This document shows, in pieces, positions 1,395-13,276 of a stretch of DNA of 64,000 nt. The stretch covers positions 4,064 to 68,063 of the forward strand of contig JBAZXG010000005.1 in assembly GCA_041660005.1 (NCBI GenBank), given 5' to 3'. Position 1 is the first letter of the stretch. The number at the start of each line of letters is the position of its first letter. Origin of the DNA: Patescibacteria group bacterium (GTDB taxonomy: Bacteria > Patescibacteriota > Patescibacteriia > GWA2-46-9). Both the position numbers and the translations under genes were made by a program. The notes under the pieces were generated by a model that did not search any database, was not told the origin of the DNA, and saw only the letters and a list, made by a program, of their open reading frames with translations.

Positions 1395-2639
1395 TTATGT
1401 TTTAGAACTGACGAGCGAATAACGCCCGTCCTCGCCTTTTACAAATAGTGACTGATTAAGAAGCGCCAGGTGAATCGTTTGCTTTTTTACCATACGTTTC
1501 CGCAAAACCTCGCTCACAATTTCTTCTCTCGTTAACGATTTTCGCTCGACTAAAAGTTCCCGAACAACGTCCCCCACTGTTCCCGGCTGATACCCCCACT
1601 CCCGGAGTGCATACAAACCGCGTCCCACTAACACGAAACGTTTATCTAAAATAAGTTCGTTATGTACCGACGGAGCTTTGGCAACTTTTGCATCAAAATG
1701 AGCGCCATTAATTTTCTCGGTTATCGCGCTAAAGTGAAGCGGCTTGCCCTCATGACGCAGTATTAAATAAATTTTATCGTTCATGCGCCGCGGACGAATC
1801 GTCGGCCACGATTGTTTACCCCATTCGCCGAATATATTTTGCGACAAGTCCCCAGAAGCTGCTAAATACGCAGTGAGCACGCCATCCTCTTCGGCGGCTG
1901 TTGGTTCCTCATCTACATTTGGATCGCTGAGAAATTCTCGGGCAATATGCACAGGTTCAGCTACGAGCTGCCGTTTGTGCTCAATATAGTATGGCTGCTG
2001 ACGATAACGACGCAGTAACTCTGTGAGCTGCAGCGGAACGCCAGCCGGCTCCACGACGTTTAAAAAAGCTCCTACGGCTCCTTGCAACAGTAACGTATCG
2101 ACACCCGTCAACACGTAAAGCGTACGAAGCTTCTGCTGCTCGACACGACGTTCAACAAATCCTTCAAGTAAGTTGTCAAGTAAAAAATGAAGGCAGGCTC
2201 TGGTACGTATCTCTTGCGTGCTTGCGTCACCCGAGGTGTGTGAATAATGTAACAGCTGATTAATAAAGTATTCTGACTCTAAAGCTCCTCCATGGCTTCT
2301 GAGTAAGTATTCGGTCGTGCGAATAAATAACTTCAACTCATCATGCTTTGATCGCAGCGCTTGCAGTTTGCCTACAGAAGATTTTGTAATTTGACGGACA
2401 CGCTCTCTCGTAACTTGAAGTTTTTTTCCTATTTCCTCAAGGGTCTCGGTCTGACCACCGTCAGGAACAGCAAAACGGTGACGAACCACCTCTGCTTCAC
2501 GCGGAGTTAATGTCCCCAAAAGATGCACAACTACTGAAACTGGATCAAACGAACGAATTTCCTCAGCATGGCGCTGTGTTATAAGTTTGTCTAAAATACT
2601 GTACTCAGACATCGTTATATGGGCTAGTAAATGAATCAA
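1395..2639 (-). CDS. Sigma-70 region 4 (HTH) domain protein with large C-terminal domain of unknown function
   Basis: 414-aa ORF. The N-terminal segment ETLEEIGKKLQVTRERVRQI plus flanking residues resembles sigma-70 region 4, the -35-binding HTH. The remaining ~300 aa has no recognisable family. An alternative start is M10 at 2612. Confidence 0.55.
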   Translation of the reverse strand: MIHLLAHITMSEYSILDKLITQRHAEEIRSFDPVSVVVHLLGTLTPREAEVVRHRFAVPDGGQTETLEEIGKKLQVTRERVRQITKSSVGKLQALRSKHDELKLFIRTTEYLLRSHGGALESEYFINQLLHYSHTSGDASTQEIRTRACLHFLLDNLLEGFVERRVEQQKLRTLYVLTGVDTLLLQGAVGAFLNVVEPAGVPLQLTELLRRYRQQPYYIEHKRQLVAEPVHIAREFLSDPNVDEEPTAAEEDGVLTAYLAASGDLSQNIFGEWGKQSWPTIRPRRMNDKIYLILRHEGKPLHFSAITEKINGAHFDAKVAKAPSVHNELILDKRFVLVGRGLYALREWGYQPGTVGDVVRELLVERKSLTREEIVSEVLRKRMVKKQTIHLALLNQSLFVKGEDGRYSLVSSKT

Positions 2640-2734: not shown

Positions 2735-3685
2735 CTAATACTGAGCTAACCGACGCTTCTCCTTCCAGGAGTACCAGCTAACAAGCAATGGTGAAGCAAT
2801 AAAGATCGAGCTGTAGGTTCCAAAAGTGATGCCGAACACGAGAGCTAGAACAAAATAGCGGCTACTCGCACCACCAAAGAACAGTGTGAAGAGTAAAACG
2901 AGCAGTGTGGTGAGTGACGTGTTAAGAGATCGCGACATTGTTTCGTTGAGACTACGGTTGACAACTTTGGCAAATGAATCCGTTGTGTGATGTAAGTTCT
3001 CTCGAATACGGTCAAAAACAACGATGGTGTCGTGAACAGAAAAACCGAGGAGCGTTAAGAGCGCGGTAATAAACAAGGTATCAATTTCAACGCCCATAAA
3101 ATGACCGAGCACGGCAAAAATGCCGACGGTAATAATGGTGTCGTGAAAGAGTGCGATAATAGCAGCCATACCGTACTGCCAGGAAGGGACCGGTCGCGAT
3201 ACCTTTCTGAACGCCCAAGCAATATACAAAACAATAGCGCCGAGTACGGTCGCAAGAGCAAGTATTGAGTTCTGCCGGAGCTCCGCACCAATAGTTGGGC
3301 CAATGGCGGTAAAACGCTCGACAGTAAGCTTACTGCCATCCTCTCCCCCAAACTTTTTTTTCAAAGTACTCACCAACAGTTCATGGTCTGCATCGCTGAT
3401 GGCAGAACCTTCTTTGGCGCCAATTCGCAAAACAGCGCCTTGGCTTCCAACGGGCGTAACATCAACTTTGCCGAGTGAACTGGGTAGCGCCGTTTCAATG
3501 TCTGCCACGACTGGCCTGTCACCAGTAAAGGCAACTTCGAGAAGCGACCCTCCAGTAAAATCGATACCGTACCGCAAACCCCAGCCAGGCACAACCACCG
3601 CCAAAATCGCCAACACCGTCAAAGTGCCGGAAAATATATATGCCACGCGGCGATACCCTACAATGTTAAAGTTTCTGCGCTTCAT
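2735..3685 (-). CDS. secF: Protein-export membrane protein SecF
   Basis: 316 aa. SecF hallmarks include TLLTLLGFSVHDTIVVFDRIREN and a multi-TM topology. It overlaps the secD stop by 4 nt (ATGA). Confidence 0.9.
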   Translation of the reverse strand: MKRRNFNIVGYRRVAYIFSGTLTVLAILAVVVPGWGLRYGIDFTGGSLLEVAFTGDRPVVADIETALPSSLGKVDVTPVGSQGAVLRIGAKEGSAISDADHELLVSTLKKKFGGEDGSKLTVERFTAIGPTIGAELRQNSILALATVLGAIVLYIAWAFRKVSRPVPSWQYGMAAIIALFHDTIITVGIFAVLGHFMGVEIDTLFITALLTLLGFSVHDTIVVFDRIRENLHHTTDSFAKVVNRSLNETMSRSLNTSLTTLLVLLFTLFFGGASSRYFVLALVFGITFGTYSSIFIASPLLVSWYSWKEKRRLAQY

Positions 3686-5523
3686 AACTGTTCACTTTCA
3701 GAATTTTTATGAGACCAACCGTACAGCCACAATCGCTTGGTGCTACCATTACCAACAACAAGACGCAGGAACGAGCGGGTAACCGTGATCGCGCTGAACA
3801 TACTCACCAAAATACCAAACGCTAGAGTTAGCGCAAAACCGCGAATCACGCTCGTACCAAACCAGTACAGTATGAGACATGTAAGCAGTGACGAAACGTT
3901 TGAATCGCGAATTGATGTCCAGGCACGTTGAAACCCTACCTCAATTGCAGATTGCAGCGGACGCTTATCAGCAAGCTCCTCGCGCAGGCGTTCAAAGATA
4001 AGAACGTTTGCGTCTACCGCCATACCAATCGACAAAATAAATCCTGTCACTCCGGCTAATGTTAATGTTACGGGCCAAATTTTGAAAACAGCCAAAGCAA
4101 TACTTGAATAAATAAGCAAAGCAAGAACAGAAAGTATGCCCGGCAGGCGGTAATAGAGAATCATAAAAATCGCGACAAACAGAAACCCCATGAGCCCTGC
4201 CTTCAGACTCCGATCAATGGCAGCCGCACCAAGTTTAGCTCCAACAGTTTGCTGCGAAACTAACGTAATAGGAACGGGCAGCGCACCGGCGTTTAAGCGT
4301 TGCGCCAGAAGCTTTGCTTCGTCAATGGTAAAACTGCCAGTAATGACCGCTTCTCCGCCCACAATTGCCTGCTGTACAGTTGGTAAACTAATTGGCTGCT
4401 TGTCGAGGAAAATACCAACGGGTTTGCCAATGTTTCTACTGGTAATTTCTTCGAATAACTTTGACCCTTCGGCATTAAAACGAAGTTGTACCTGTGGTTG
4501 ATTAGTCTGCTGCGCAAAAACAACGGCTGCTGAGTCCAGTTGTTTACCCGACAATTCTGTATTTTTCCACCCACCGTTGGTGTCCTTTGGCAAAAAGTCA
4601 CTCTCTGAAGGTGCGGAAATGAGAATGTGGCGCGCGTGAATCTCCAGCGTGCCATCAGCGCTCTTTCGGTCATCAAGTCTTTGGATAACATGATAGCCAT
4701 AAGCAGACTGAACCGGTCGCGTCGTAACTTGGTTCGTTTTTAATTGATCAAACAGCGCAGTGCCAAATTCAGAGACAACACTCGCCTTAGTTATATACCC
4801 CAAATCGCCGCCATTCTCTTTCGAGCCGGTATCAGCAGAAAACTCCTTTGCCAGTGCTGCAAAATCAGCACCAGTTTTTAAACGCCGAATGATGTCCTCA
4901 GCTTTTTTCTTTGCATTAATCTGACCGTCAGCAATAATTTTCTTTTGCTCAGTAGTCAAAACTGGTGCCACGGCATTTGTATCTTGTTCTTTGAATTCAA
5001 GTAGCGGCGTTTCACCGATCTGCTTTATGGCGTCTGCCACATTCTCTACCCCAGCAAGTTCAACCAGCACGCGCCACTGATCCCCTGAACGGTCAGTTTG
5101 AACGACCGGCTCGGCTACGCCAAAAGCATTAACCCGTCGATCGATGACATCACGAACACCCTCAAGAGCTGAAGCGCGATCCTTTTGAGGAATCTTACTT
5201 GTATCAGCGTCATACAAAAGTTGCGTCCCACCAACTAAATCAAGGCCGAGACGAAATGGTCGATTAATAAAATGCGGAACGCCGGCCTTGAGAGCACCAC
5301 CGACCCACCCGAGGCCTCTTGGAAAATGATTTGATCCGAGATTAGCCAATTTAGGATTTACAGCATCTACCGCTCGGTTATAGTAAACCGGATCATTATA
5401 GAGAGCTGTGGTAATGGTCAAAATAATAATAGCGACAAAAGTCCAGCGCACTCTCCCTCGCCGCGTCTGGAAAGTAACCTTAAGTGCCATCCATAAAAAA
5501 CCTAGGCCGTGCAAGATAAACAT
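3682..5523 (-). CDS. secD: Protein-export membrane protein SecD (with inserted parvulin-like segment)
   Basis: 613 aa. SecD P1-head motifs are present (GLDLVGG, IGKPVGIFLD, VQQAIVGGEAVITGSF) with a C-terminal 6-TM block. Residues ~190-330 carry PpiC/parvulin signatures: ADFAALAKEFS, GGDLGYI, YGYHVIQ, EIHARHILIS. Confidence 0.9.
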   Translation of the reverse strand: MFILHGLGFLWMALKVTFQTRRGRVRWTFVAIIILTITTALYNDPVYYNRAVDAVNPKLANLGSNHFPRGLGWVGGALKAGVPHFINRPFRLGLDLVGGTQLLYDADTSKIPQKDRASALEGVRDVIDRRVNAFGVAEPVVQTDRSGDQWRVLVELAGVENVADAIKQIGETPLLEFKEQDTNAVAPVLTTEQKKIIADGQINAKKKAEDIIRRLKTGADFAALAKEFSADTGSKENGGDLGYITKASVVSEFGTALFDQLKTNQVTTRPVQSAYGYHVIQRLDDRKSADGTLEIHARHILISAPSESDFLPKDTNGGWKNTELSGKQLDSAAVVFAQQTNQPQVQLRFNAEGSKLFEEITSRNIGKPVGIFLDKQPISLPTVQQAIVGGEAVITGSFTIDEAKLLAQRLNAGALPVPITLVSQQTVGAKLGAAAIDRSLKAGLMGFLFVAIFMILYYRLPGILSVLALLIYSSIALAVFKIWPVTLTLAGVTGFILSIGMAVDANVLIFERLREELADKRPLQSAIEVGFQRAWTSIRDSNVSSLLTCLILYWFGTSVIRGFALTLAFGILVSMFSAITVTRSFLRLVVGNGSTKRLWLYGWSHKNSESEQL

Positions 5524-5893: not shown

Positions 5894-6391
5894 CTAAATA
5901 TTTTTATACTTCTTAGTACTCTCTAGTATAGAGACTTCGTCAAGATCAGATCTTTTATACAAATCGTGCTGAGTGCTCATTTTGCTTATCAAAAAATCAA
6001 TCGGTAAAAATTTTATTTCACTGCCAGCTTCGGGGTCAGACATGTCACGCAACGAAGCATCGAATTTAACTAAATTGCACAGAAAATAAAGCGTGGTTTT
6101 TTTAACTTGAATACTTCCACGAGGAAACTCACTGGTAACCGCCCCAATATACGTTTCAATTATTGCCTCAACACCACATTCTTCAAGTAACCCTCTATGC
6201 ACAGCTGTCTCAAGTGTCTCTCCAACCTCAAGCGTTTCTCTCATTAACAAATATAAATTTTTATAGCATCCACCGTAAAGCTCAGTCGAAGTGAAATAAT
6301 GACAAAAAACTTCGTTCCGATCGTTTAAGACAACTGCCCCAACCGAAAGATGGTACGGATGCTCTTTGGTTCCATTGAAGTAGTTAGACAT
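5894..6391 (-). CDS. Nudix hydrolase
   Basis: 165 aa. It carries the Nudix box MRETLEVGETLETAVHRGLLEECGV (GX5EX7REUXEEXGU). It lies in a markedly AT-rich island. Confidence 0.8.
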   Translation of the reverse strand: MSNYFNGTKEHPYHLSVGAVVLNDRNEVFCHYFTSTELYGGCYKNLYLLMRETLEVGETLETAVHRGLLEECGVEAIIETYIGAVTSEFPRGSIQVKKTTLYFLCNLVKFDASLRDMSDPEAGSEIKFLPIDFLISKMSTQHDLYKRSDLDEVSILESTKKYKNI

Positions 6392-6410
6392 AACGAAGAT
6401 AATGTACCGA

Positions 6411-6839
6411 TCAAATTTTCGATAGGTCCCCTCTTAATACAATCGGCTGCATGGCTTTAATTTCATCACTGTAGCTCATCTTTGGAATATTATTCAACAA
6501 AAAAATCTTTTTATTGAGAACATGAGCAAACCCCATTTCTAAAAACACATTGCCGCCAATATACCCCTTAATCCCCTTCTTGTCATAATTGGCAACAAGT
6601 ACCACATCGCAATCATTAATGACGTTCCAGTATGCTCGTATTGAATCATACTGAATGGCTCTGTCGGAAAATTTTCCGCTTTTCTTCTCGTCTTTTATAC
6701 TATCCAAGGAAAACTCTCCAGCCAAAATTTTTCCTGAAGTAATTGGAATATGCACATCGAACTTCCGCGCACGAAGTTCATTTGCTAGTTTTTCAACTTC
6801 ATACGTAAAATCTAAGCTTGCACAAATTGCGATTTTCAT
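6411..6839 (-). CDS. Nucleoside 2-deoxyribosyltransferase-like (NDT/Rcl-fold) protein
   Basis: 142 aa. Resemblance to the NDT fold is weak. The N-terminal KIAICASL is an NDT-like Rossmann start. The C-terminal GGNVFLEMGFAHVLNKKIFLL resembles the catalytic-Glu block DSGTAFEIGYA of NDT/DNPH1. Confidence 0.45.
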   Translation of the reverse strand: MKIAICASLDFTYEVEKLANELRARKFDVHIPITSGKILAGEFSLDSIKDEKKSGKFSDRAIQYDSIRAYWNVINDCDVVLVANYDKKGIKGYIGGNVFLEMGFAHVLNKKIFLLNNIPKMSYSDEIKAMQPIVLRGDLSKI

Positions 6840-6842
6840 AAA

Positions 6843-7304
6843 TTACTTGCCATGACACTCTCGATATTTTTTACCGCTTTCGCACACGCACAATGTATTT
6901 AATTTAAAAAAATTACAATCGGAAACAAAGAGTGGCTCTGGTAAATCATTTAAATGAAACCATCGAATCTCAGTGCAGCGATCAGGCTCCATCATTCTAG
7001 GCTTCCCGCTCCACTTCGTTGCTTTCATAAAGATAGTCACATAATGCTTCTGCTCTTTTTTAAAAACATCGTTAGTTACGCCGAGAACGCGTACTTCCTC
7101 AATGTCTAAATCAACTTCTTCTTTTGTCTCTCTCATAGCGTTTTGTAAAAAGCTTTCCTGCCACTCCAAATGACCACCCGGCAAACACCAAGTACCTGCT
7201 CCATGACTTCCGCTTCTCTTTTCAAGCAAAACTTGATTCTTATCGTTTAAAATAAAAATACCAGTACCCACACTTGGTCTCATTGCCTTAGTTTCATTTA
7301 CCAT
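6843..7304 (-). CDS. Nudix hydrolase with C-terminal SEC-C-type zinc motif
   Basis: 153 aa. Nudix box GGHLEWQESFLQNAMRETKEEVDL. The C-terminus CVCESGKKYRECHGK resembles the SecA C-terminal CxCxSGKKYKxCHG metal-binding motif. Confidence 0.75.
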   Translation of the reverse strand: MVNETKAMRPSVGTGIFILNDKNQVLLEKRSGSHGAGTWCLPGGHLEWQESFLQNAMRETKEEVDLDIEEVRVLGVTNDVFKKEQKHYVTIFMKATKWSGKPRMMEPDRCTEIRWFHLNDLPEPLFVSDCNFFKLNTLCVCESGKKYRECHGK

Positions 7305-7411: not shown

Positions 7412-10174
7412 TCAGGACTGCGAAATATCACTTCCGTGGCATTTCTTGTATTTCACCGGGGTGCCATCTGCTTTAACCGCTCCGCACGGGCACGGTTCAT
7501 TTCTACCAATTTTTTCTGCATGAACTTGTACAGCGCTAGAGCTCACATTTCCACCTGCCGGCAAACCACCGTCAGCTGTTCGCTCTGACATGGTTTTGGC
7601 GGGTGCAGAGAAGGTTATGTTTTGCTTACGTTGAAGCGAAGGCGCCATGTTTGCTGCAGCCCGCACTTTATAAATACTGTACACAACTTGCTTACGAATG
7701 AGATCAAGGAGCTCAGCAAACAAACGGAATGCCTCTCGCTTATACTCAACCAGAGGGTCTCTCTGTCCGTATCCGCGTAGACCAATACCCTGCCGCAAAT
7801 GGTCCATGGCTTCTAGGTGCTCGATCCATAGGGAATCAATGGAGCGCAGTAGCAGTGAACGCTCAACGAGAAGAAAACCGTTCTTGTCGTCCTTGATGGC
7901 TTCGTTAATTTCTTTGGCAAGTTGCTCATAAGCTGTCTCTGCGTCTTTCAAAATCTGCGTTATGAGCGCGTCACGTTTAACAACAAGGGTATGCTCTTCC
8001 CCGCGACTACTGAGTTTTACAATTTCTTGCTCAGTGTCTGCAGAAACCGGATAAATCGTTCGCATCACTTCGCTAATTTCCTTAGTGTTCCAGTCACCGG
8101 TATTCTCACTACTGGTATGAAATGCTACCACCGTCTCGATCTCTTCCGTAATCATTTTTAATATTTCGGGACGCAGCAAATCCTCGCTCGTTTCCTCGCC
8201 GAGCTTGAAATTATCCAGAACACGATGGCGCATACGATAAATCGTTTCGCGATGCTTGTTGATAACGTCATCGTACTCAACTAAGTGCTTACGAATATCA
8301 AAGTTATGACCCTCAACCCTGCGCTGCGCCGATTCTAGAGCGCGCGAAACCATTTTGTTCTCAATCGGCATATCTTCAGGTACACCGAGGCGCTCCATCA
8401 TGGTTTTGATGCGCTCACTACTAAAAATGCGCATGAGGTCGTCCTCTAAACAAACGTAAAACTGAGATGACCCGGGGTCACCCTGTCTGCCGGAACGACC
8501 GCGCAATTGGTTGTCTATTCGCCGCGATTCATGACGTTCAGTTCCGATAACATGCAGCCCACCGGCTGCAACCACACGCTTATGCTCCTCCTCCCAGCGC
8601 GCCTGCTCTTCTGGACTTTCTGGCGCACCGTTAATGAGCTGCGGCGAAGAGCCGCCTAAGATAATGTCGACACCACGACCAGCCATGTTGGTTGCCAATG
8701 TCACCGCCCCAAATCTTCCCGCCTCGGCGATGATACTCGCTTCGCGCTCGTGGTTTTTTGCGTTAAGAACTTCATGTGGTACGCCAGCTTCCAATAGCAG
8801 CTGACTCAAATGTTCGTTTTTTTCAATTGATATCGTCCCAACGAGAACCGGCTGCCCTGTCTCGTGACGCGCTTTAATCTCGTCAATAACTGCCTTAAAT
8901 TTTCCGTGTTCGTTTTTATAGATACGATCAGACAGGTCACCCCGAACCATCGGGCGATGTGTTGGTATAACAACAACTTCCAACTTATAAATTTTATGAA
9001 ACTCCTCAGCTTCGGTCTCGGCTGTACCGGTCATGCCGGCAAGTTTTTCGTAAAGACGAAAATAATTCTGAAACGTTATCGTTGCTAACGTCTGGCTTTC
9101 TCGCTGAATTTTCACGTTTTCCTTGGCCTCAATTGCCTGGTGCAACCCCTCAGAATAACGCCGACCATACATAAGTCGCCCGGTAAACTCGTCAACAATG
9201 ATAACTTCATCGTCCTTCACAACATAGTCGCGATCTCTTTTATATAACCGTTCTGCTCTCAATGCTTGTTCGATGTGGTGAACAATCTCAAGACCACTAC
9301 CCGTATAGAGATTCTCAATATTAAGCAATTTCTCGAGCTTCGAAATCCCTAATGCGGTCAAGGTAGCCGCGCGCATCTTTTCGTCGACATTATCATCAAC
9401 CTCTGGCTCTAATTTCCTAATGAGTTGGGCGAACTGGTAATAGCGATCGTTGGATTCTTCAGCCGGAGCAGAAATAATGAGCGGCGTTCTCGCTTCGTCA
9501 ATAAGAATGCTATCCACCTCGTCGACAATGGCGTAGTGAAGCCCCCGCTGCACCCTGTCCTCAACGCGCGCAACCATGTTGTCGCGTAAATAATCAAAAC
9601 CAAATTCATTATTGGTGCCATAAGTTATATCGCAGGCATAGGCCTCTTTCCTGCTAACCGCTTCGAGTTCTTTTGTCTCTGGGTTATAGCGAAAGGCGGC
9701 ATCATGTTCAATTGAGCCCACCGACATACCCAGCATATCAAATACTGCACCCATCCACTGACACTGGAAACGGGCCAAATAATCGTTCACCGTAATCAAA
9801 TGGGCACCCCTACCCGTGAGCGCATTAGCATAAAGCGGCGCGGTTGCCGTTAACGTTTTACCTTCACCCGTACGCATTTCCGCAATGTTCCCACGATGCA
9901 ATATGACGCCACCCATGAGCTGCACATCAAAATGCCGCTGGTTAAGTGTGCGGCGCGCCGCTTCCCTTACCGAAGCAAAAGCTTCGGGTAATAAGTCGTC
10001 AAGTGATTCACCTTCGGCAAGACGACGCCTCAAGGTAACCGTTTGGGATCGAAGTTCTTCTGCGCTGAGCTTTGTACACGCTTCTTCGAATCCATTTATC
10101 ACATCAAGCGTAACCTGAACGTTTTTCAGCGCCCGGGCGTTGCTATCTCCAAATAATCTACTAATAATGCTCAC
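7412..10174 (-). CDS. secA: Preprotein translocase ATPase SecA
   Basis: 920 aa. Full SecA architecture with DEAD motor, preprotein cross-linking domain, helical scaffold and C-terminal zinc motif CPCGAVKADGTPVKYKKCHG. The start codon is GTG at 10172-10174. Confidence 0.95.
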   Translation of the reverse strand: MSIISRLFGDSNARALKNVQVTLDVINGFEEACTKLSAEELRSQTVTLRRRLAEGESLDDLLPEAFASVREAARRTLNQRHFDVQLMGGVILHRGNIAEMRTGEGKTLTATAPLYANALTGRGAHLITVNDYLARFQCQWMGAVFDMLGMSVGSIEHDAAFRYNPETKELEAVSRKEAYACDITYGTNNEFGFDYLRDNMVARVEDRVQRGLHYAIVDEVDSILIDEARTPLIISAPAEESNDRYYQFAQLIRKLEPEVDDNVDEKMRAATLTALGISKLEKLLNIENLYTGSGLEIVHHIEQALRAERLYKRDRDYVVKDDEVIIVDEFTGRLMYGRRYSEGLHQAIEAKENVKIQRESQTLATITFQNYFRLYEKLAGMTGTAETEAEEFHKIYKLEVVVIPTHRPMVRGDLSDRIYKNEHGKFKAVIDEIKARHETGQPVLVGTISIEKNEHLSQLLLEAGVPHEVLNAKNHEREASIIAEAGRFGAVTLATNMAGRGVDIILGGSSPQLINGAPESPEEQARWEEEHKRVVAAGGLHVIGTERHESRRIDNQLRGRSGRQGDPGSSQFYVCLEDDLMRIFSSERIKTMMERLGVPEDMPIENKMVSRALESAQRRVEGHNFDIRKHLVEYDDVINKHRETIYRMRHRVLDNFKLGEETSEDLLRPEILKMITEEIETVVAFHTSSENTGDWNTKEISEVMRTIYPVSADTEQEIVKLSSRGEEHTLVVKRDALITQILKDAETAYEQLAKEINEAIKDDKNGFLLVERSLLLRSIDSLWIEHLEAMDHLRQGIGLRGYGQRDPLVEYKREAFRLFAELLDLIRKQVVYSIYKVRAAANMAPSLQRKQNITFSAPAKTMSERTADGGLPAGGNVSSSAVQVHAEKIGRNEPCPCGAVKADGTPVKYKKCHGSDISQS

Positions 10175-10785: not shown

Positions 10786-11886
10786 TTATTGCCTAAAAAC
10801 GGACGGCAGTGTGTCAAAACCGACGCACTCTGCCTCTGGAAATAGACGTACGCCAAAATGTTCAAAAACTGCGGCTTGAATGTCCGTTGCTAAGTTAATG
10901 ACATCATTTGCCGACGCATGGGAAAGATTAACAATGGCCAATGCCTGCTTTGACGACAAACCGACTGAACCCCTCTGGTAGCCTTTAGGGAAGCCCGCCT
11001 GCTCAATCAACCAGGCAGCCGAAAGCTTCACTTTACCGTCAGCACTTGGCCAGCGCACCAGTTTAAGGTTTCTAACTTTTAACTGCTCATCTAATGCGTT
11101 ACTTTGCTCCAAGCTTATTACTGGGTTGGTAAAAAAAGAACCGACGCTGCGACTATAGGGTTCGTCCGTGCTCAAAACCATGGCTTTCTTTTTTCTGAGT
11201 GTTAGCACTGCAGCGCGAATTGCTTCGAGGGTGGGTTCTTCTCCACGCTCAGCGAGCAAACTACGTAGCTCTTCGTATTTTACACTACCCGTTTCCGATG
11301 AAAGCAAAGAAAAGGTTACGGTCATAACAACATAGCGCTTCCGCCATAAACGTTTAAAATTGCTGGTGCGATAGCCAAAGCCGCATTCTTTTTTACTCAA
11401 ATCTACGACCCTCTGTTGCTCGGTATCATAAACACGCACGGACACTATACTTTCACCAACTTCTTGCCCATAAGCGCCAATATTTTGTACCGGCGTAGCG
11501 CCAACGCTTCCGGGAATACCGCTCAAACACTCCACGCCGCTTAAGCCCTTTTGAACGCAAAGCGATACAAAAGTATCCCACGAGACAGCTGCCTCGGCTT
11601 TGACCTCGACCCTCCCACTAAGAGGCTCAGAAAAATGGATGCTCTTAGCCACGAAGCGAACAACGAGACCACGATAACCAGTATCCGAAAAAAGTATATT
11701 ACTGCCATCGCCCAAAACAAAAAAATCAAGACGCTGTTTTTTTGCACTCTCAATCGCCCACACCAATTCCTCCTCAGTCTTTGCTTCAAAATAGTAATCA
11801 GCCGGCCCGCCAATTTCTATCGATGAATGCTCGGAAAGTGGCTCATTCGTTATAACCCGTGAAGCGCTGACGCCGGTAAAAATCAT
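10786..11886 (-). CDS. murB: UDP-N-acetylenolpyruvoylglucosamine reductase MurB
   Basis: FAD-binding MurB N-domain GGPADYYFEAKTEEELVWAIESAKKQRLDFFVLGDGSNILF and a typical C-terminal domain. The start is set at M14 (11886) to avoid a 35-nt overlap with murC. Confidence 0.85.
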   Translation of the reverse strand: MIFTGVSASRVITNEPLSEHSSIEIGGPADYYFEAKTEEELVWAIESAKKQRLDFFVLGDGSNILFSDTGYRGLVVRFVAKSIHFSEPLSGRVEVKAEAAVSWDTFVSLCVQKGLSGVECLSGIPGSVGATPVQNIGAYGQEVGESIVSVRVYDTEQQRVVDLSKKECGFGYRTSNFKRLWRKRYVVMTVTFSLLSSETGSVKYEELRSLLAERGEEPTLEAIRAAVLTLRKKKAMVLSTDEPYSRSVGSFFTNPVISLEQSNALDEQLKVRNLKLVRWPSADGKVKLSAAWLIEQAGFPKGYQRGSVGLSSKQALAIVNLSHASANDVINLATDIQAAVFEHFGVRLFPEAECVGFDTLPSVFRQ

Positions 11887-11890
11887 AGCA

Positions 11891-13276
11891 TTAACGAATG
11901 AGCATATCGGCAACGCGCCAGACATCCCCGGCGCCCATGGTTATGAGTACCCCTTTGCCGGTTTCTTTTTTGGCAACGAGACTGGCCTCCTCAAGACTTC
12001 CTACCCCAACCGCATGCCCCGGATTCACTGCATTAATCGCCGCAACAAGCATGGCGTGGTCTACCCTCCCCTTGTCTTCACGAGCGGAAGCATAAATTGG
12101 CGGAACGATAACAAGATCGGCTTCACCCAAAGACTCCGCAAAATCAGGAAGCAACTGTTCTGTGCGACTGTAGGTGTGCGCTTGAAAAACAACCACAATG
12201 CGACGCTCCGAATACCCTTTTCGTACGGCGCGAACAACTGAACGAATTTCTGAAGGGTGATGCGCATAGTCGTCAATCACCACCATTGACCCAAATGCAC
12301 CGCGTCGCTCGAAACGCCTGGCGGTGCCTCGATAGTGCTCCAAGGATCTGCCAATAATTTTTGAAGATACCCCCGCCTTGTCCGCCATGACTAACGCGGC
12401 AAGAGCATCAAGAGCGTAATGCTTGCCCGGAAAATTAAGGGAGAATTCTCCATGCAAAACGTTATGCTTGTATACGCGAAAGTTTGTCACGCCTTCTTTA
12501 ACTTGAACGTTTTTAAGTTGCCAATCATTCTTTTTATCTTCACCAAAAGTAACGACTGATGCGGAACAACCTTTGACTAAACTTTTAGAGACAGGATCGT
12601 CACCATTAATAATGAGCGTACCGTCTGCGGGCAAACGCTTTACAAACTCGGCAAAAACAGCGAGATAGGCGGCTTCGTTTTTAAAGAAATCTGGATGGTC
12701 ATAATCAACGTTCGTAATAATGATATGACGAGGTGCGTAGAACTGAAATTTGTTTTGATACTCATCAGCCTCAAAAACAAACCAATCCCCACTACCGGAA
12801 CGTGCATTTTTTCCCCAGGCGGTTACCGGTGCACCGATTAACGCCGTTGGATCAATGCCTCCTTCTTCAAGCATGTGTGCAAGCAATGCCGTGGTCGTGG
12901 TTTTACCGTGAGACCCGGCAACCGCTACCGAATTCCGATAACTCAACGCCAGCACACCGAGTACTTCGGGATAACTCCACTCTGGCAGAGATAAATCTCT
13001 GGCCGCCTCGCGCTCAATATGGTTTGGTGCGTAGGCTGTTGAATAAACAATCGCGTCAATAATCGAAGTAATGTTGCTTTTCGAAAAACCCTCAGCAACC
13101 GAAATGTTTGACGAGCGCAGTACTTCATCGGTCTGAAAAGATTCCATTGTGTCAGAACCGCTGACTACATACCCTTGCGCTTGTAGCAGCGCTGCTAAGC
13201 CAGTCATTCCTACACCTTTAATGCCAATAAGATGTATGCGTGCCGGTGGGTTAGGAAATTGAGTTTCTGCAGTCAT
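11891..13276 (-). CDS. murC: UDP-N-acetylmuramate--L-alanine ligase MurC
   Basis: 461 aa. MurC N-terminus IHLIGIKGVGMTGLAALLQAQGYVVSGSD with Mur ligase central and C-terminal domains. Confidence 0.9.
   Translation of the reverse strand: MTAETQFPNPPARIHLIGIKGVGMTGLAALLQAQGYVVSGSDTMESFQTDEVLRSSNISVAEGFSKSNITSIIDAIVYSTAYAPNHIEREAARDLSLPEWSYPEVLGVLALSYRNSVAVAGSHGKTTTTALLAHMLEEGGIDPTALIGAPVTAWGKNARSGSGDWFVFEADEYQNKFQFYAPRHIIITNVDYDHPDFFKNEAAYLAVFAEFVKRLPADGTLIINGDDPVSKSLVKGCSASVVTFGEDKKNDWQLKNVQVKEGVTNFRVYKHNVLHGEFSLNFPGKHYALDALAALVMADKAGVSSKIIGRSLEHYRGTARRFERRGAFGSMVVIDDYAHHPSEIRSVVRAVRKGYSERRIVVVFQAHTYSRTEQLLPDFAESLGEADLVIVPPIYASAREDKGRVDHAMLVAAINAVNPGHAVGVGSLEEASLVAKKETGKGVLITMGAGDVWRVADMLIR

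What the first reader, a model, noticed from the sequence alone, without database searches (positions are those of the whole stretch)
4534..4956. SecD carries an inserted, apparently circularly permuted parvulin-like (PpiC) PPIase segment in its periplasmic P1 head
Within SecD (residues ~190-330) the sequence KKKAEDIIRRLKTGADFAALAKEFSADTGSKENGGDLGYITKASVVSEFGTALF...PVQSAYGYHVIQRL matches the helix/GGDLG/GYHII blocks of parvulins. It is followed by EIHARHILIS, which matches the usual N-terminal EVHARHIL strand of SurA/PrsA parvulin domains. The order is therefore permuted relative to canonical PpiC, and canonical SecD motifs resume on both sides. A foldase fused into the translocon accessory subunit would couple secretion and folding in an organism with a reduced chaperone repertoire.
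Basis: partly seen in the sequence, partly recalled or inferred. Interest (0 to 1): 0.55.

Follow-up and report, generated by a model that had tools for sequence, protein, structure and literature searches.

The report
SecD with built-in permuted prolyl isomerase
The protein-export helper SecD of this candidate-phyla-radiation bacterium has a complete but circularly rearranged parvulin prolyl-isomerase (protein-folding) domain built into its outward-facing part, which suggests that export and folding of secreted proteins are physically joined in these bacteria.

Summary
The secD gene (3682-5523, minus strand) encodes a genuine SecD (TIGR01129, 378 bits against a cut-off of 244). About 135 extra residues (183-320) sit between the P1 base and the P1 head.

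The insert matches parvulin models strongly (PF13616, E = 2e-23) but lacks the usual N-terminal strand beta1. That strand, EIHARHILIS, lies after beta4 instead.

Evidence that this is a real circular permutation:
- Moving the strand to the front in silico adds 10-12 bits and gives an end-to-end Pfam match. Shuffled strands add at most 1.6 bits.
- The AlphaFold2 model (pLDDT 93.6) folds the strand onto beta4 as a hairpin.
- The rest of the domain overlays SurA parvulin domain 2 at 1.0 A.
- The catalytic tetrad Asp231/His299/His278/Ser273 is invariant in all 61 single-insert homologues.

All 120 closest SecD homologues carry the insert; the named ones are Uhrbacteria, Buchananbacteria or other Patescibacteria. 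Fifty-seven of them have a second, ordinary parvulin nested between beta4 and the relocated strand.

The most likely function is a foldase or holdase tethered to the translocon, acting on chains as they leave SecYEG. Enzyme activity is not shown. I found no paper describing this fusion or a permuted parvulin. Verdict: a new variant of known parts, moderately interesting.

The parts
3682..5523 (-). secD ORF (613 aa as listed). The likely true start is Met12 at 5488-5490, because an identical 602-aa database protein, P0001, starts there.
   Evidence: TIGR01129 scores 378 bits against a cut-off of 244.
5389..5445 (-). Predicted first transmembrane segment (WTFVAIIILTITTALYNDP). It places everything up to about residue 430 outside the cytoplasm.
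   Evidence: Hydrophobic stretch read directly. The topology follows from the known SecD architecture (TM1, P1, TM2-6) and was not computed here.
4981..5160 (-). N-terminal part of the P1 base (Pfam SecD_1st, residues 122-181). It ends in the conserved GETPLLEFKE strand.
   Evidence: PF21760, E = 6e-15. One search aligns it to T. thermophilus SecDF residues 33-125.
4570..4977 (-). The inserted module that was modelled (residues 183-318): linker, long helix, parvulin core, hairpin, relocated beta1 strand and return linker.
   Evidence: (AF2 pLDDT 93.6, pTM 0.85).
4876..4953 (-). A 26-residue helix (residues 191-216). It is parvulin helix alpha1 extended at its N-terminus and forms the outgoing arm from the SecD P1 base.
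   Evidence: H9-34 of the model. One search aligns residues 191-215 to T. thermophilus SecDF 129-153.
4672..4929 (-). Parvulin core matched by Pfam Rotamase_3 (residues 199-284). It contains GADF, FSAD (Asp231), GGDLG and GYH (His278).
   Evidence: E = 1.9e-23; SurA, PrsA, PpiC structures at E down to 1e-22; 1.0 A rmsd to 4g2p_A.
4831..4833 (-). Asp231, the tetrad position equivalent to Pin1 Cys113, Par14 Asp74 and NmPin Asp42.
   Evidence: Asp in 61 of 61 single-insert homologues. The tetrad definition is from PMC4922055.
4705..4707 (-). Ser273, the Thr/Ser of the tetrad, five residues before the beta4 His.
   Evidence: (Thr 44 and Ser 17 of 61).
4663..4698 (-). Strand beta4, GYHVIQRLDDRK (residues 276-287). 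His278 is encoded at 4690-4692.
   Evidence: His in 61 of 61.
4648..4662 (-). Hairpin loop SADGT (residues 288-292). It joins the old C-terminus (beta4) to the old N-terminus (beta1). In homologues it is variable in length and is the site where the second parvulin is nested.
   Evidence: His-to-His spacing 20-26 residues; longer loops; nested domain.
4615..4647 (-). Relocated beta1 strand, LEIHARHILIS (residues 293-303). His299 is encoded at 4627-4629.
   Evidence: matches beta1 of SurA parvulin 2; de-permutation test; E111-121, pLDDT ~97; H, I and L invariant.
4564..4614 (-). Return linker APSESDFLPKDTNGGWK (residues 304-320), leading back into SecD.
   Evidence: In the double-insert model the equivalent WKNTELS forms a strand, as does LEFKE.
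4273..4563 (-). SecDF P1 head subdomain (residues 321-417; Pfam profile positions 18-114 of 114).
   Evidence: E = 4e-31. One search aligns residues 324-600 to T. thermophilus SecDF 160-437.
3763..4266 (-). SecD membrane domain (SecD_SecF_C, residues 420-587) with the conserved GMAVDANVLIFERLREE motif.
2735..3685 (-). secF (316 aa), overlapping the end of secD by 4 nt. It is the partner subunit.
   Evidence: SecD_SecF_C, E = 3.6e-55.

Best explanation
This is the SecD subunit of the SecDF export motor of a Patescibacteria bacterium of the Uhrbacteria type. A complete parvulin-type prolyl isomerase domain has been grafted into it where the P1 base passes into the mobile P1 head.

The domain is circularly permuted. 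The chain leaves SecD after the LEFKE strand and runs up a 26-residue helix (an extended parvulin alpha1). It then builds the parvulin core through to beta4, turns in a short hairpin, and lays down the strand that is normally the N-terminal beta1 (LEIHARHILIS). From there it returns to the P1 head.

The catalytic tetrad is therefore assembled from the core (Asp231, Ser273, His278) and the relocated strand (His299).

Inferred mechanism: SecDF sits beside the SecYEG exit, and its P1 head binds emerging chains and moves with proton flow. The tethered parvulin would meet unfolded exported proteins at that point, hold them and speed up cis/trans isomerisation at prolines. It would be a built-in equivalent of PrsA, PpiD or SurA.

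Shown here: the domain, its permuted order, the conserved catalytic residues, the confident predicted fold, and conservation of the architecture across a large family. Inferred only: enzymatic activity, contact with substrates, and any coupling to P1 movement.
For: - SecD identity and the position of the insert.
- Parvulin homology: PF13616 at E = 1.9e-23 and PF00639 at E = 4.4e-19; solved SurA, PrsA and PpiC chains at E = 1e-22 to 1e-8.
- Permuted order, sequence evidence: the Pfam match starts at profile position 31-35, so beta1 is missing at the N-terminus. The strand after beta4 aligns to beta1 of SurA parvulin 2 within one continuous alignment.
- De-permutation test: placing the strand in front of the core raises PF13616 from 86.8 to 98.9 bits and extends the match to profile position 15. 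PF00639 rises from 73.0 to 81.6 bits and covers profile 1-95. Three shuffled-strand controls score 87.5-88.4 bits. P0035 gains 12.3 bits and P0051 gains 12.1 bits.
- The de-permuted sequence aligns end to end with Pin1, Par10 and SurA parvulin 2.
- Predicted fold: AF2 pLDDT 93.6, pTM 0.85. Strands are 58-62, 89-91, 94-105 and 111-121 of the modelled fragment, and the last one, the trailing strand, has pLDDT ~97.
- Foldseek: every hit at E <= 0.001 is parvulin-containing as far as the descriptions tell. 4g2p_A (SurA domain 2) overlays at 1.0 A rmsd over 87 columns.
- Slot argument: beta2 and beta4 sit in their canonical places and beta2 is modelled as a paired strand. The only strand left to fill the slot between them is the trailing one.
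- Residue conservation: Asp231, Thr/Ser273, His278 and His299 are present in 61 of 61 single-insert homologues.
- Family: all 120 best SecD homologues carry Rotamase domains. Twenty-nine of the 150 best-scoring 50%-identity cluster representatives are SecD-parvulin proteins.
- Named lineages: Uhrbacteria, Buchananbacteria, Komeilibacteria and unclassified Patescibacteria.
- Functional context: AlphaFold models place the SurA parvulin domains on the SecDF P1 head, and SurA binds the holotranslocon (PMC9987972). In M. pneumoniae, PrsA-like PPIases form a complex with the Sec translocon, including SecDF.
Against: - No coordinates or contact map could be read from the models. Placement of the trailing strand in the beta1 slot, and the exact register of His278 against His299, are deduced from secondary structure, confidence and the overlay. 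They were not measured.
- The DSSP strand ends of the single-insert model (94-105 and 111-121) would, taken literally, put the two histidines three positions out of register. A bulge or an asymmetric loop must be assumed.
- Parvulin domains with good-looking sequences can be inactive or dispensable in periplasmic chaperones. In my recollection this applies to SurA domain 1 and to PpiD.
- Activity, substrates and the position of the domain relative to SecY were not tested.
- The taxonomic range outside the Parcubacteria group, and whether these genomes also have a separate PrsA, are unknown.
Confidence: 0.75

Rival explanations
1. The domain is folded and permuted as described but is not an enzyme. 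It serves as a passive substrate-binding or holdase surface, or as a docking or regulatory element for movement of the P1 head. Non-catalytic parvulin domains of periplasmic chaperones work this way.
For: In the 57 double-insert homologues the permuted (first) domain has lost tetrad residues. The beta4 His is kept in 12 of 57, the trailing-strand His in 19 of 57, and Thr/Ser in 26 of 57. So the permuted scaffold is retained without catalysis in half the family. L013 (Buchananbacteria) has a degenerate GGDLG motif and a degenerate trailing-strand His. The dual-histidine motif has been argued to be structural rather than catalytic (title of reference 86 in PMC4922055).
Against: In all 61 single-insert forms, including this window, the whole Asp/His/His/Thr-Ser tetrad and the substrate-pocket residues Leu241 and Phe252 are invariant or nearly so. 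That is hard to explain by stability alone. In the double forms one intact tetrad is always kept, in the nested domain. This suggests selection for at least one active site per SecD.
Confidence: 0.2
2. There is no true permutation. The insert is an N-terminally truncated parvulin, and EIHARHILIS is only a leftover first strand of a second parvulin that was lost. It now serves as a linker or belongs to the P1 head.
For: The sequence looks like a slice of a tandem parvulin protein, from SurA domain 1 into the first strand of domain 2. Double-parvulin relatives exist.
Against: - His, Ile and Leu of the strand are invariant in the single-insert forms: all 47 aligned sequences, with His in 61 of 61.
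- AF2 models it as a confident strand (pLDDT ~97) in a fragment that lacks the P1 head.
- The Pfam P1-head match starts only at residue 321.
- A parvulin sheet without its central beta1 would leave beta2 unpaired, yet beta2 is modelled as a strand and the core overlays a canonical domain at 1.0 A.
- In the double forms, loss of the trailing-strand His tracks loss of the first core's His. Counts are 37 neither, 11 both and 9 discordant, Fisher p = 4e-6, although only 4-5 independent changes are inferred.
Confidence: 0.04
3. The fusion is an assembly or gene-calling artefact: a chimeric contig, or a frameshift joining secD to a neighbouring PPIase gene.
For: None beyond the general risk with metagenome-derived sequence.
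Against: The reading frame is continuous, with SecD sequence on both sides of the insert. The same architecture appears in 120 clusters at 90% identity, drawn from NCBI, JGI, ENA and Logan assemblies. It also appears in five GTDB species genomes.
Confidence: 0.01

Closest known systems
Canonical SecD/SecDF (for example Thermus thermophilus SecDF, PDB 3AQP/5YHF)
   Same: It has the same membrane domain, P1 base and P1 head, the GG motif, the conserved AVDxNV...FER motif and an adjacent secF. It aligns to 3AQP at E = 8e-75 and passes TIGR01129.
   Different: About 100 more residues lie between the LEF(K/R) strand and the head than in T. thermophilus SecDF (about 143 against about 45). The inserted stretch folds as a separate parvulin domain of ~135 residues. 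No solved SecDF chain matched the insert.
Parvulin PPIase domains of SurA (PDB 1M5Y, 4G2P), PrsA (4WO7, 6VJ4) and PpiC/Par10 (1JNS)
   Same: Same fold and motifs: GADF, S-x-D, GGDLG, GYH and HIL. The Asp/His/His/Thr-Ser tetrad is complete. The best sequence and structure matches are SurA domain 2 and PrsA.
   Different: The segment order is alpha1...beta4-beta1 instead of beta1-alpha1...beta4. Helix alpha1 is about twice as long. There is no SurA/PrsA-type N- and C-terminal chaperone module: Pfam finds only Rotamase models in the insert. The host protein is a membrane transporter subunit.
SurA docking on the SecDF P1 head / holotranslocon (Troman et al. 2023, PMC9987972)
   Same: Parvulin domains are placed next to the SecDF P1 head at the translocon exit. 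In E. coli this is a non-covalent contact, predicted by AlphaFold and supported by binding and EM.
   Different: Here the association is covalent and permanent, and involves only the parvulin part. These bacteria are thought to lack an outer membrane (my knowledge), so delivery of outer-membrane proteins is not the purpose.
Translocon-associated PPIase chaperones: PpiD-YfgM (E. coli), the PrsA lipoprotein (Firmicutes), and the Mdp444/436/489 dome on the Sec translocon of Mycoplasma pneumoniae
   Same: A membrane-tethered parvulin-type foldase sits at the outer face of the Sec machinery. In Mycoplasma it is in a near-obligate complex that includes SecDF, and substrate density contacts the active PPIase domain.
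   Different: Those are separate polypeptides with their own anchors and chaperone domains. Here the parvulin is a domain of SecD itself and is circularly permuted.

Membership tests
SecD (protein translocase subunit SecD, TIGR01129) | Whole-protein match to the curated equivalog model above its cut-off | tested here: met
   TIGR01129 scores 378.2 bits against a cut-off of 244.4. Residues 92-585 cover profile positions 1-396 of 397.
SecD (protein translocase subunit SecD, TIGR01129) | P1 base, P1 head and the SecD_SecF_C membrane domain in the canonical order, plus the GG motif | tested here: met
   PF07549 at 86-109, PF21760 at 122-181, PF22599 at 321-417 and PF02355 at 420-587. Aligns to T. 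thermophilus SecDF at E = 8e-75.
SecD (protein translocase subunit SecD, TIGR01129) | A partner secF gene adjacent | tested here: met
   secF lies at 2735-3685, overlaps secD by 4 nt, and matches PF02355 at E = 3.6e-55.
SecD (protein translocase subunit SecD, TIGR01129) | Conserved membrane-embedded acidic residue of the proton path (T. thermophilus Asp340, numbering from memory) | tested here: met
   GMAVDANVLIFERLREE aligns with T. thermophilus GAAVDGNVLSFERIKEE. Proton conduction itself was not tested.
Parvulin (PpiC-type PPIase; Pfam PF00639/PF13616) | Significant match to the family models above the gathering score | tested here: met
   PF13616 scores 83.6 bits (cut-off 22.5) and PF00639 scores 69.7 bits (cut-off 21.7).
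Parvulin (PpiC-type PPIase; Pfam PF00639/PF13616) | Canonical linear order beta1-alpha1-3-beta2-alpha4-beta3-beta4 | tested here: not met
   The profile match starts at position 31-35, and the segment before the helix is modelled as coil. The beta1-like strand follows beta4. The domain is homologous to the family but permuted.
Parvulin (PpiC-type PPIase; Pfam PF00639/PF13616) | Parvulin fold: a four-stranded sheet packed by helices | tested here: met
   AF2 gives pLDDT 93.6 with four main strands and the expected helices. Foldseek overlays 4g2p_A at 1.0 A over 87 columns. Hits at E <= 0.001 are parvulin proteins as far as the descriptions tell. This is a prediction, not an experiment.
Parvulin (PpiC-type PPIase; Pfam PF00639/PF13616) | Catalytic tetrad Cys/Asp-His-His-Thr/Ser (PMC4922055) | tested here: met
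   Asp231, His299, His278 and Ser273 are all present, and each is conserved in 61 of 61 single-insert homologues.
Parvulin (PpiC-type PPIase; Pfam PF00639/PF13616) | Measurable prolyl cis/trans isomerase activity | not testable with these tools
   This needs a protease-coupled or NMR exchange assay on purified protein.
Circularly permuted domain (general criterion) | Both segments are homologous to the parent family, in swapped order, with no copy of the moved segment at its original place | tested here: met
   The continuous SurA alignment runs into beta1 of the next domain. The de-permutation test gains 10-12 bits against at most 1.6 bits for the shuffled controls. The de-permuted sequence aligns end to end with canonical parvulins. 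There is no strand before alpha1.
Circularly permuted domain (general criterion) | The moved segment occupies its original place in the three-dimensional fold | tested here: inconclusive
   This is strongly implied by the hairpin onto beta4, by beta2 being paired, by the 1.0 A core overlay and by pLDDT ~97. Model coordinates could not be inspected, and no permutation-aware overlay (CE-CP or TM-align -cp) could be run.
SurA/PrsA/PpiD-type chaperones | N- and C-terminal chaperone (SurA_N / trigger-factor-like) module flanking the parvulin domain | tested here: not met
   Pfam finds only Rotamase models in residues 183-320, and only SecD and related RND-type transporter models in the rest of the protein. 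NCBIfam PrsA, SurA and PpiD models match only over their parvulin part and score far below their cut-offs.

The most novel reading that the evidence does not exclude
The permuted parvulin is the main, or only, extracytoplasmic prolyl isomerase of these minimal bacteria. Because it is mounted at the hinge of the proton-driven P1 head, it would work as an energy-coupled foldase: each proton-powered swing of SecDF would present the emerging chain to the active site and then release it.

The fusion would then be natural 'Rosetta stone' evidence that parvulin chaperones act at the SecDF P1 head in bacteria generally. It would also be the first natural circularly permuted parvulin. The two-domain variant would be a domain-in-domain design, held together by a two-stranded ribbon.
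Probability: 0.2. Interest if true: 0.8.

Novelty: new variant of a known kind. Interest (0 to 1): 0.58.

Why it matters
How exported proteins are handed from the Sec channel to folding helpers, and what the mobile P1 head of SecDF actually does, are still debated. Current support for chaperone recruitment by SecDF rests on weak non-covalent complexes and on structure predictions.

A large bacterial lineage that has welded a parvulin foldase onto SecD next to the P1 head is independent evolutionary evidence that these two activities belong together. It also offers a simple, one-polypeptide system to test the idea.

For protein evolution, it is a clean natural case of circular permutation in a small, well-studied enzyme fold. 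A sister form has a second copy nested in the permutation loop.

For CPR/Patescibacteria biology, it points to a lineage-specific solution for folding surface and secreted proteins. Automatic annotation hides it, because these proteins are simply named 'SecD'.

Tried and rejected
- **GTDB genome scan.** I scanned with the insert alignment to map the taxonomic range. Only five SecD loci came back: L001, L010, L013, L015 and L042.
- **The listing of cluster members.** Run on ten homologues; it returned no organism names.
- **Profile search with the insert alignment.** It returned only short multi-parvulin proteins and fragments, not SecD. It was useless for taxonomy.
- **Representative search.** It gave a mixture. 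Only 29 of 150 are SecD fusions, so it does not give a family size.
- **B. fragilis PPIase 8HM3/8HM4.** I wanted its residue alignment, because Foldseek aligned 116-127 columns to it. It never ranked among the printed alignments, and the paper I checked does not describe the domain. A Bacteroidales homologue (L038) shows an ordinary tandem arrangement with its own first strand, so I do not regard it as a precedent for the permutation.
- **Strand register.** I tried to read the beta4/beta1 register from the DSSP strand ends. In the single-insert model the ends sum to 216 while the two histidines sum to 213, so the register cannot be settled without coordinates.
- **Which form came first.** Single-insert cores resemble the nested domain in 56 of 61 cases. 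The window's own core resembles the permuted first domain more, and the helices always resemble the first domain. The direction of evolution is unresolved.
- **Rejected ideas.** A strand before the helix could serve as beta1: that segment is coil, with pLDDT 79, and is not conserved. The trailing strand could belong to the P1 head: the Pfam head match begins only at residue 321.
Full report
**Check of the observation.**
- The ORF is SecD. Pfam finds Sec_GG (86-109), SecD_1st (122-181), SecDF_P1_head (321-417, profile positions 18-114 of 114) and SecD_SecF_C (420-587).
- NCBIfam TIGR01129 scores 378 bits against a cut-off of 244.
- It aligns to Thermus thermophilus SecDF (3AQP) at E = 8e-75.
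- secF follows with a 4-nt overlap (2735-3685), and secA lies 1.9 kb upstream (7412-10174).
- An identical 602-aa database protein (P0001) suggests the real start is Met12.
- Between the two P1 pieces Pfam finds a parvulin: PF13616 at E = 1.9e-23 (residues 199-284) and PF00639 at E = 4.4e-19.
- Solved SurA, PrsA and PpiC chains match the insert at E = 1e-22 to 1e-8.

The match is real and far beyond chance.

**Anatomy.** T. thermophilus SecDF has about 45 residues between the LEF(R/K) strand and the LTGADL motif of the head. This protein has about 143. After GETPLLEFKE (to residue 179) the elements are:
- a short linker;
- a 26-residue helix (191-216);
- GADF (218);
- FSAD (Asp231);
- GGDLG (238-242);
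- beta3, then beta4 GYHVIQRLDDRK (276-287, His278);
- a five-residue loop SADGT;
- the strand LEIHARHILIS (293-303, His299);
- a linker, APSESDFLPKDTNGGWK;
- the P1 head, from residue 321.

Coordinates were verified. The insert therefore sits at the base-to-head crossover, at the N-terminal edge of the head. Given the known SecD topology, it lies outside the cytoplasm.

**Is it circularly permuted?** Canonical parvulins begin with strand beta1 (x-x-H-I-L-V), which carries the first catalytic histidine. Here the Pfam matches start at profile position 31-35, so that strand is missing at the N-terminus. Five results show that the strand after beta4 is the missing piece.
1. phmmer aligns insert residues 12-114 in one piece to E. 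coli SurA 171-273. That stretch is SurA parvulin 1 without its beta1, the linker, and beta1 of parvulin 2. EVHARHILLK pairs with EIHARHILIS.
2. A de-permutation test. Moving the 22-residue strand segment in front of the core raises PF13616 from 86.8 to 98.9 bits and extends the match to profile position 15. PF00639 rises from 73.0 to 81.6 bits and covers profile 1-95. Three shuffled versions of the strand give 87.5-88.4 bits. Two distant family members gain 12.3 and 12.1 bits.
3. The de-permuted sequence aligns end to end with Pin1, Par10 and SurA parvulin 2. Both histidines, GDLG and the pocket Phe fall in invariant columns.
4. AlphaFold2 on residues 183-318, using 47 homologous inserts, gives pLDDT 93.6 and pTM 0.85. 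The segment before the helix is coil. The strands are 58-62 (beta2), 89-91 (beta3), 94-105 (beta4) and 111-121 (the trailing strand, pLDDT ~97). The trailing strand is joined to beta4 by a five-residue loop.
5. Foldseek against the PDB returns parvulin proteins as the significant hits. SurA domain 2 (4g2p_A) overlays at 1.0 A rmsd over 87 columns.

In a parvulin sheet, beta1 lies between beta2 and beta4 (strand order from my own knowledge). The core is canonical and beta2 is modelled as a paired strand. The trailing strand is the only element left to fill that slot. I could not read coordinates, so this last step is an inference. The exact register of the two histidines is not settled either.

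**The family.** All 120 best database homologues of this SecD carry Rotamase domains in the same place. The closest is 81% identical and comes from a Candidatus Uhrbacteria genome. Other named sources are Buchananbacteria, Komeilibacteria and unclassified Patescibacteria. A few carry labels from other phyla, which I suspect are binning errors.

Measured from LEF to LSG, the homologues fall into two classes.
- **Single insert (61 sequences, about 140 residues), as in this window.**
  - His, Ile and Leu of the trailing strand and the His of GYH are invariant.
  - The full tetrad Asp/His/His/Thr-Ser, as defined for parvulins in PMC4922055, is present in 61 of 61.
  - The spacing between the two histidines varies from 20 to 26 residues. 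It is longer in L010 and P0184, as expected for a loop at a hairpin tip.
- **Double insert (57 sequences, about 250 residues).**
  - The order is: a first core lacking beta1; a middle strand (x-x-H-I-L-I-C) followed by a conserved Cys pair; a complete second core; and the trailing strand.
  - The middle-strand His (56 of 57), the second core's His (57 of 57) and its Thr/Ser (57 of 57) are conserved.
  - The first core's His (12 of 57), its Thr/Ser (26 of 57) and the trailing-strand His (19 of 57) have decayed, and they decay together. Counts are 37 neither, 11 both and 9 discordant (Fisher p = 4e-6). Only 4-5 independent changes are inferred, so this is suggestive rather than strong.
  - AF2 on the double insert of P0044 (pLDDT 94.8, pTM 0.77) gives two unbroken 24-residue strands, 103-126 and 212-235. 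Each runs from the beta4 of one domain straight into the next beta1-type strand.
  - The paired histidines sum to 336 and 337, close to the sum of the strand ends, 338. That is the signature of a two-stranded antiparallel ribbon joining the domains, with the trailing strand returning to the first core.
  - Foldseek finds full-length canonical parvulins in this model: the Pin1 PPIase domain over 113-118 columns (TMt 0.76-0.80, E ~1e-9) and 6xd8_A with TMt 0.80 at 3.0 A. For the single-insert model the same target, 6xd8_A, gives TMt 0.73 at 7.0 A, and no Pin1 entry appears among the 50 listed hits.

So the second parvulin is an ordinary domain nested in the hairpin loop of the permuted one. Which form is ancestral could not be decided.

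**How it most likely works.** SecDF sits next to SecYEG. Its P1 head is thought to bind emerging polypeptides and to move in response to proton flow (stated in PMC9987972). A parvulin with a complete active site, held on a long helix at the P1 hinge, would meet unfolded chains as they exit. I propose that it binds them and catalyses prolyl isomerisation, acting as a built-in PrsA/PpiD/SurA-like foldase.

Published work makes this plausible:
- SurA binds the holotranslocon, and AlphaFold places its two parvulin domains on the SecDF P1 head.
- PpiD-YfgM associates with SecYEG.
- In Mycoplasma pneumoniae, PrsA-like PPIases form a near-obligate complex with the Sec translocon, including SecDF. Substrate density contacts the active parvulin domain.

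The CPR fusion would be the covalent version of the same partnership. Activity, substrates, geometry relative to SecY and any coupling to P1 motion are all inferred.

The main rival is a non-catalytic binding or regulatory role. The decay of the permuted domain in the double forms supports that rival. The strict conservation of the tetrad in the single forms argues against it, as does the retention of one intact tetrad per protein in the double forms.

**Comparison with what is known, and novelty.** The protein is a member of SecD: all defining features tested were met. The insert is homologous to parvulins and has their fold and tetrad, but not their linear order. It lacks the chaperone module of SurA, PrsA and PpiD, so it is not a member of those families.

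Databases already hold the co-occurring Pfam domains as precomputed annotation. The proteins are nonetheless named only 'protein translocase subunit SecD', and NCBIfam has no model for the fusion. Full-text searches found no paper describing the fusion or a permuted parvulin. The searches were:
- SecD with parvulin;
- SecD, PPIase and Patescibacteria;
- 'circular permutation' with parvulin, which returned no papers;
- SecDF, candidate phyla radiation and peptidyl-prolyl;
- SecD with PpiC;
- CPR terms with PrsA and parvulin.

Subscription-only literature was not searched. I rate it a new variant of known kinds.

**Limits.**
- The claim of a 'reduced chaperone repertoire' was not tested. The 64-kb window holds no other parvulin, but a survey reports PrsA annotations in all CPR classes. 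Some of those could be this very domain.
- The taxonomic range beyond the Parcubacteria group is unknown, because the scans meant to map it were swamped by ordinary parvulins.
- Two structure libraries were unavailable.

Noticed in passing
window 6843-7304 (-): A 153-aa NUDIX hydrolase ends in a SEC-C zinc-binding motif (PF02810, 26.9 bits; CVCESGKKYRECHGK). It lies directly downstream of secA. SecA's own C-terminus has a SEC-C-like CPCG...KYKKCHG with an extra stretch inserted.
   Followed up: partly
window 5894-6839 (-): Between secA and secD lie a second NUDIX protein (5894-6391) and a weak nucleoside 2-deoxyribosyltransferase-like protein (6411-6839; 23.6 bits, below the Pfam cut-off).
   Followed up: partly
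window 1395-2639 (-): Next to secF is a 414-aa protein that combines sigma-70 region 4 (E = 5e-14) with a HARE-HTH domain (E = 9e-9). This is an unusual pairing.
   Followed up: no
window 3682-3685: The secD stop and the secF start overlap by 4 nt, which suggests translational coupling of the two subunits.
   Followed up: no
P0027-P0117 double-insert SecD homologues (alignment A2; P0044 fragment positions 127 and 134): A nearly invariant Cys pair (HILICxxGxxxC) follows the middle strand of the nested parvulin. It is probably an extracytoplasmic disulfide.
   Followed up: no
L013:2501-2866 (Candidatus Buchananbacteria SecD): This single-insert SecD has GGDLG degenerated to GGLYS and the trailing-strand His replaced by Glu, while GYH is kept. 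It is probably an inactivated version.
   Followed up: no
P0231 (905 aa), P0184 (624 aa), L010:2501-2914: Three architectural variants turned up. P0231 is a single-chain SecDF fusion carrying the parvulin insert. P0184 and L010 have roughly 15 to 40 extra residues in the loop between beta4 and the relocated strand.
   Followed up: partly
L038 (Bacteroidales SurA-like protein, 460 aa): Its first parvulin has a degenerate first strand (VEAEIIT, no His). The strand after beta4 (CRHILM), which formally starts the next domain, keeps the His. This protein is probably related to the B. fragilis PPIase 8HM3/8HM4, the top Foldseek hit for the insert model.
   Followed up: partly
literature: PMC9166423: The paper states that all CPR classes encode PrsA. 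Such automatic calls might in part be hits to the parvulin embedded in SecD rather than a separate gene. I did not test this.
   Followed up: no
window 10786-13276 (-): MurB-like and Mur-ligase genes lie upstream of secA, so this organism appears to make peptidoglycan.
   Followed up: no
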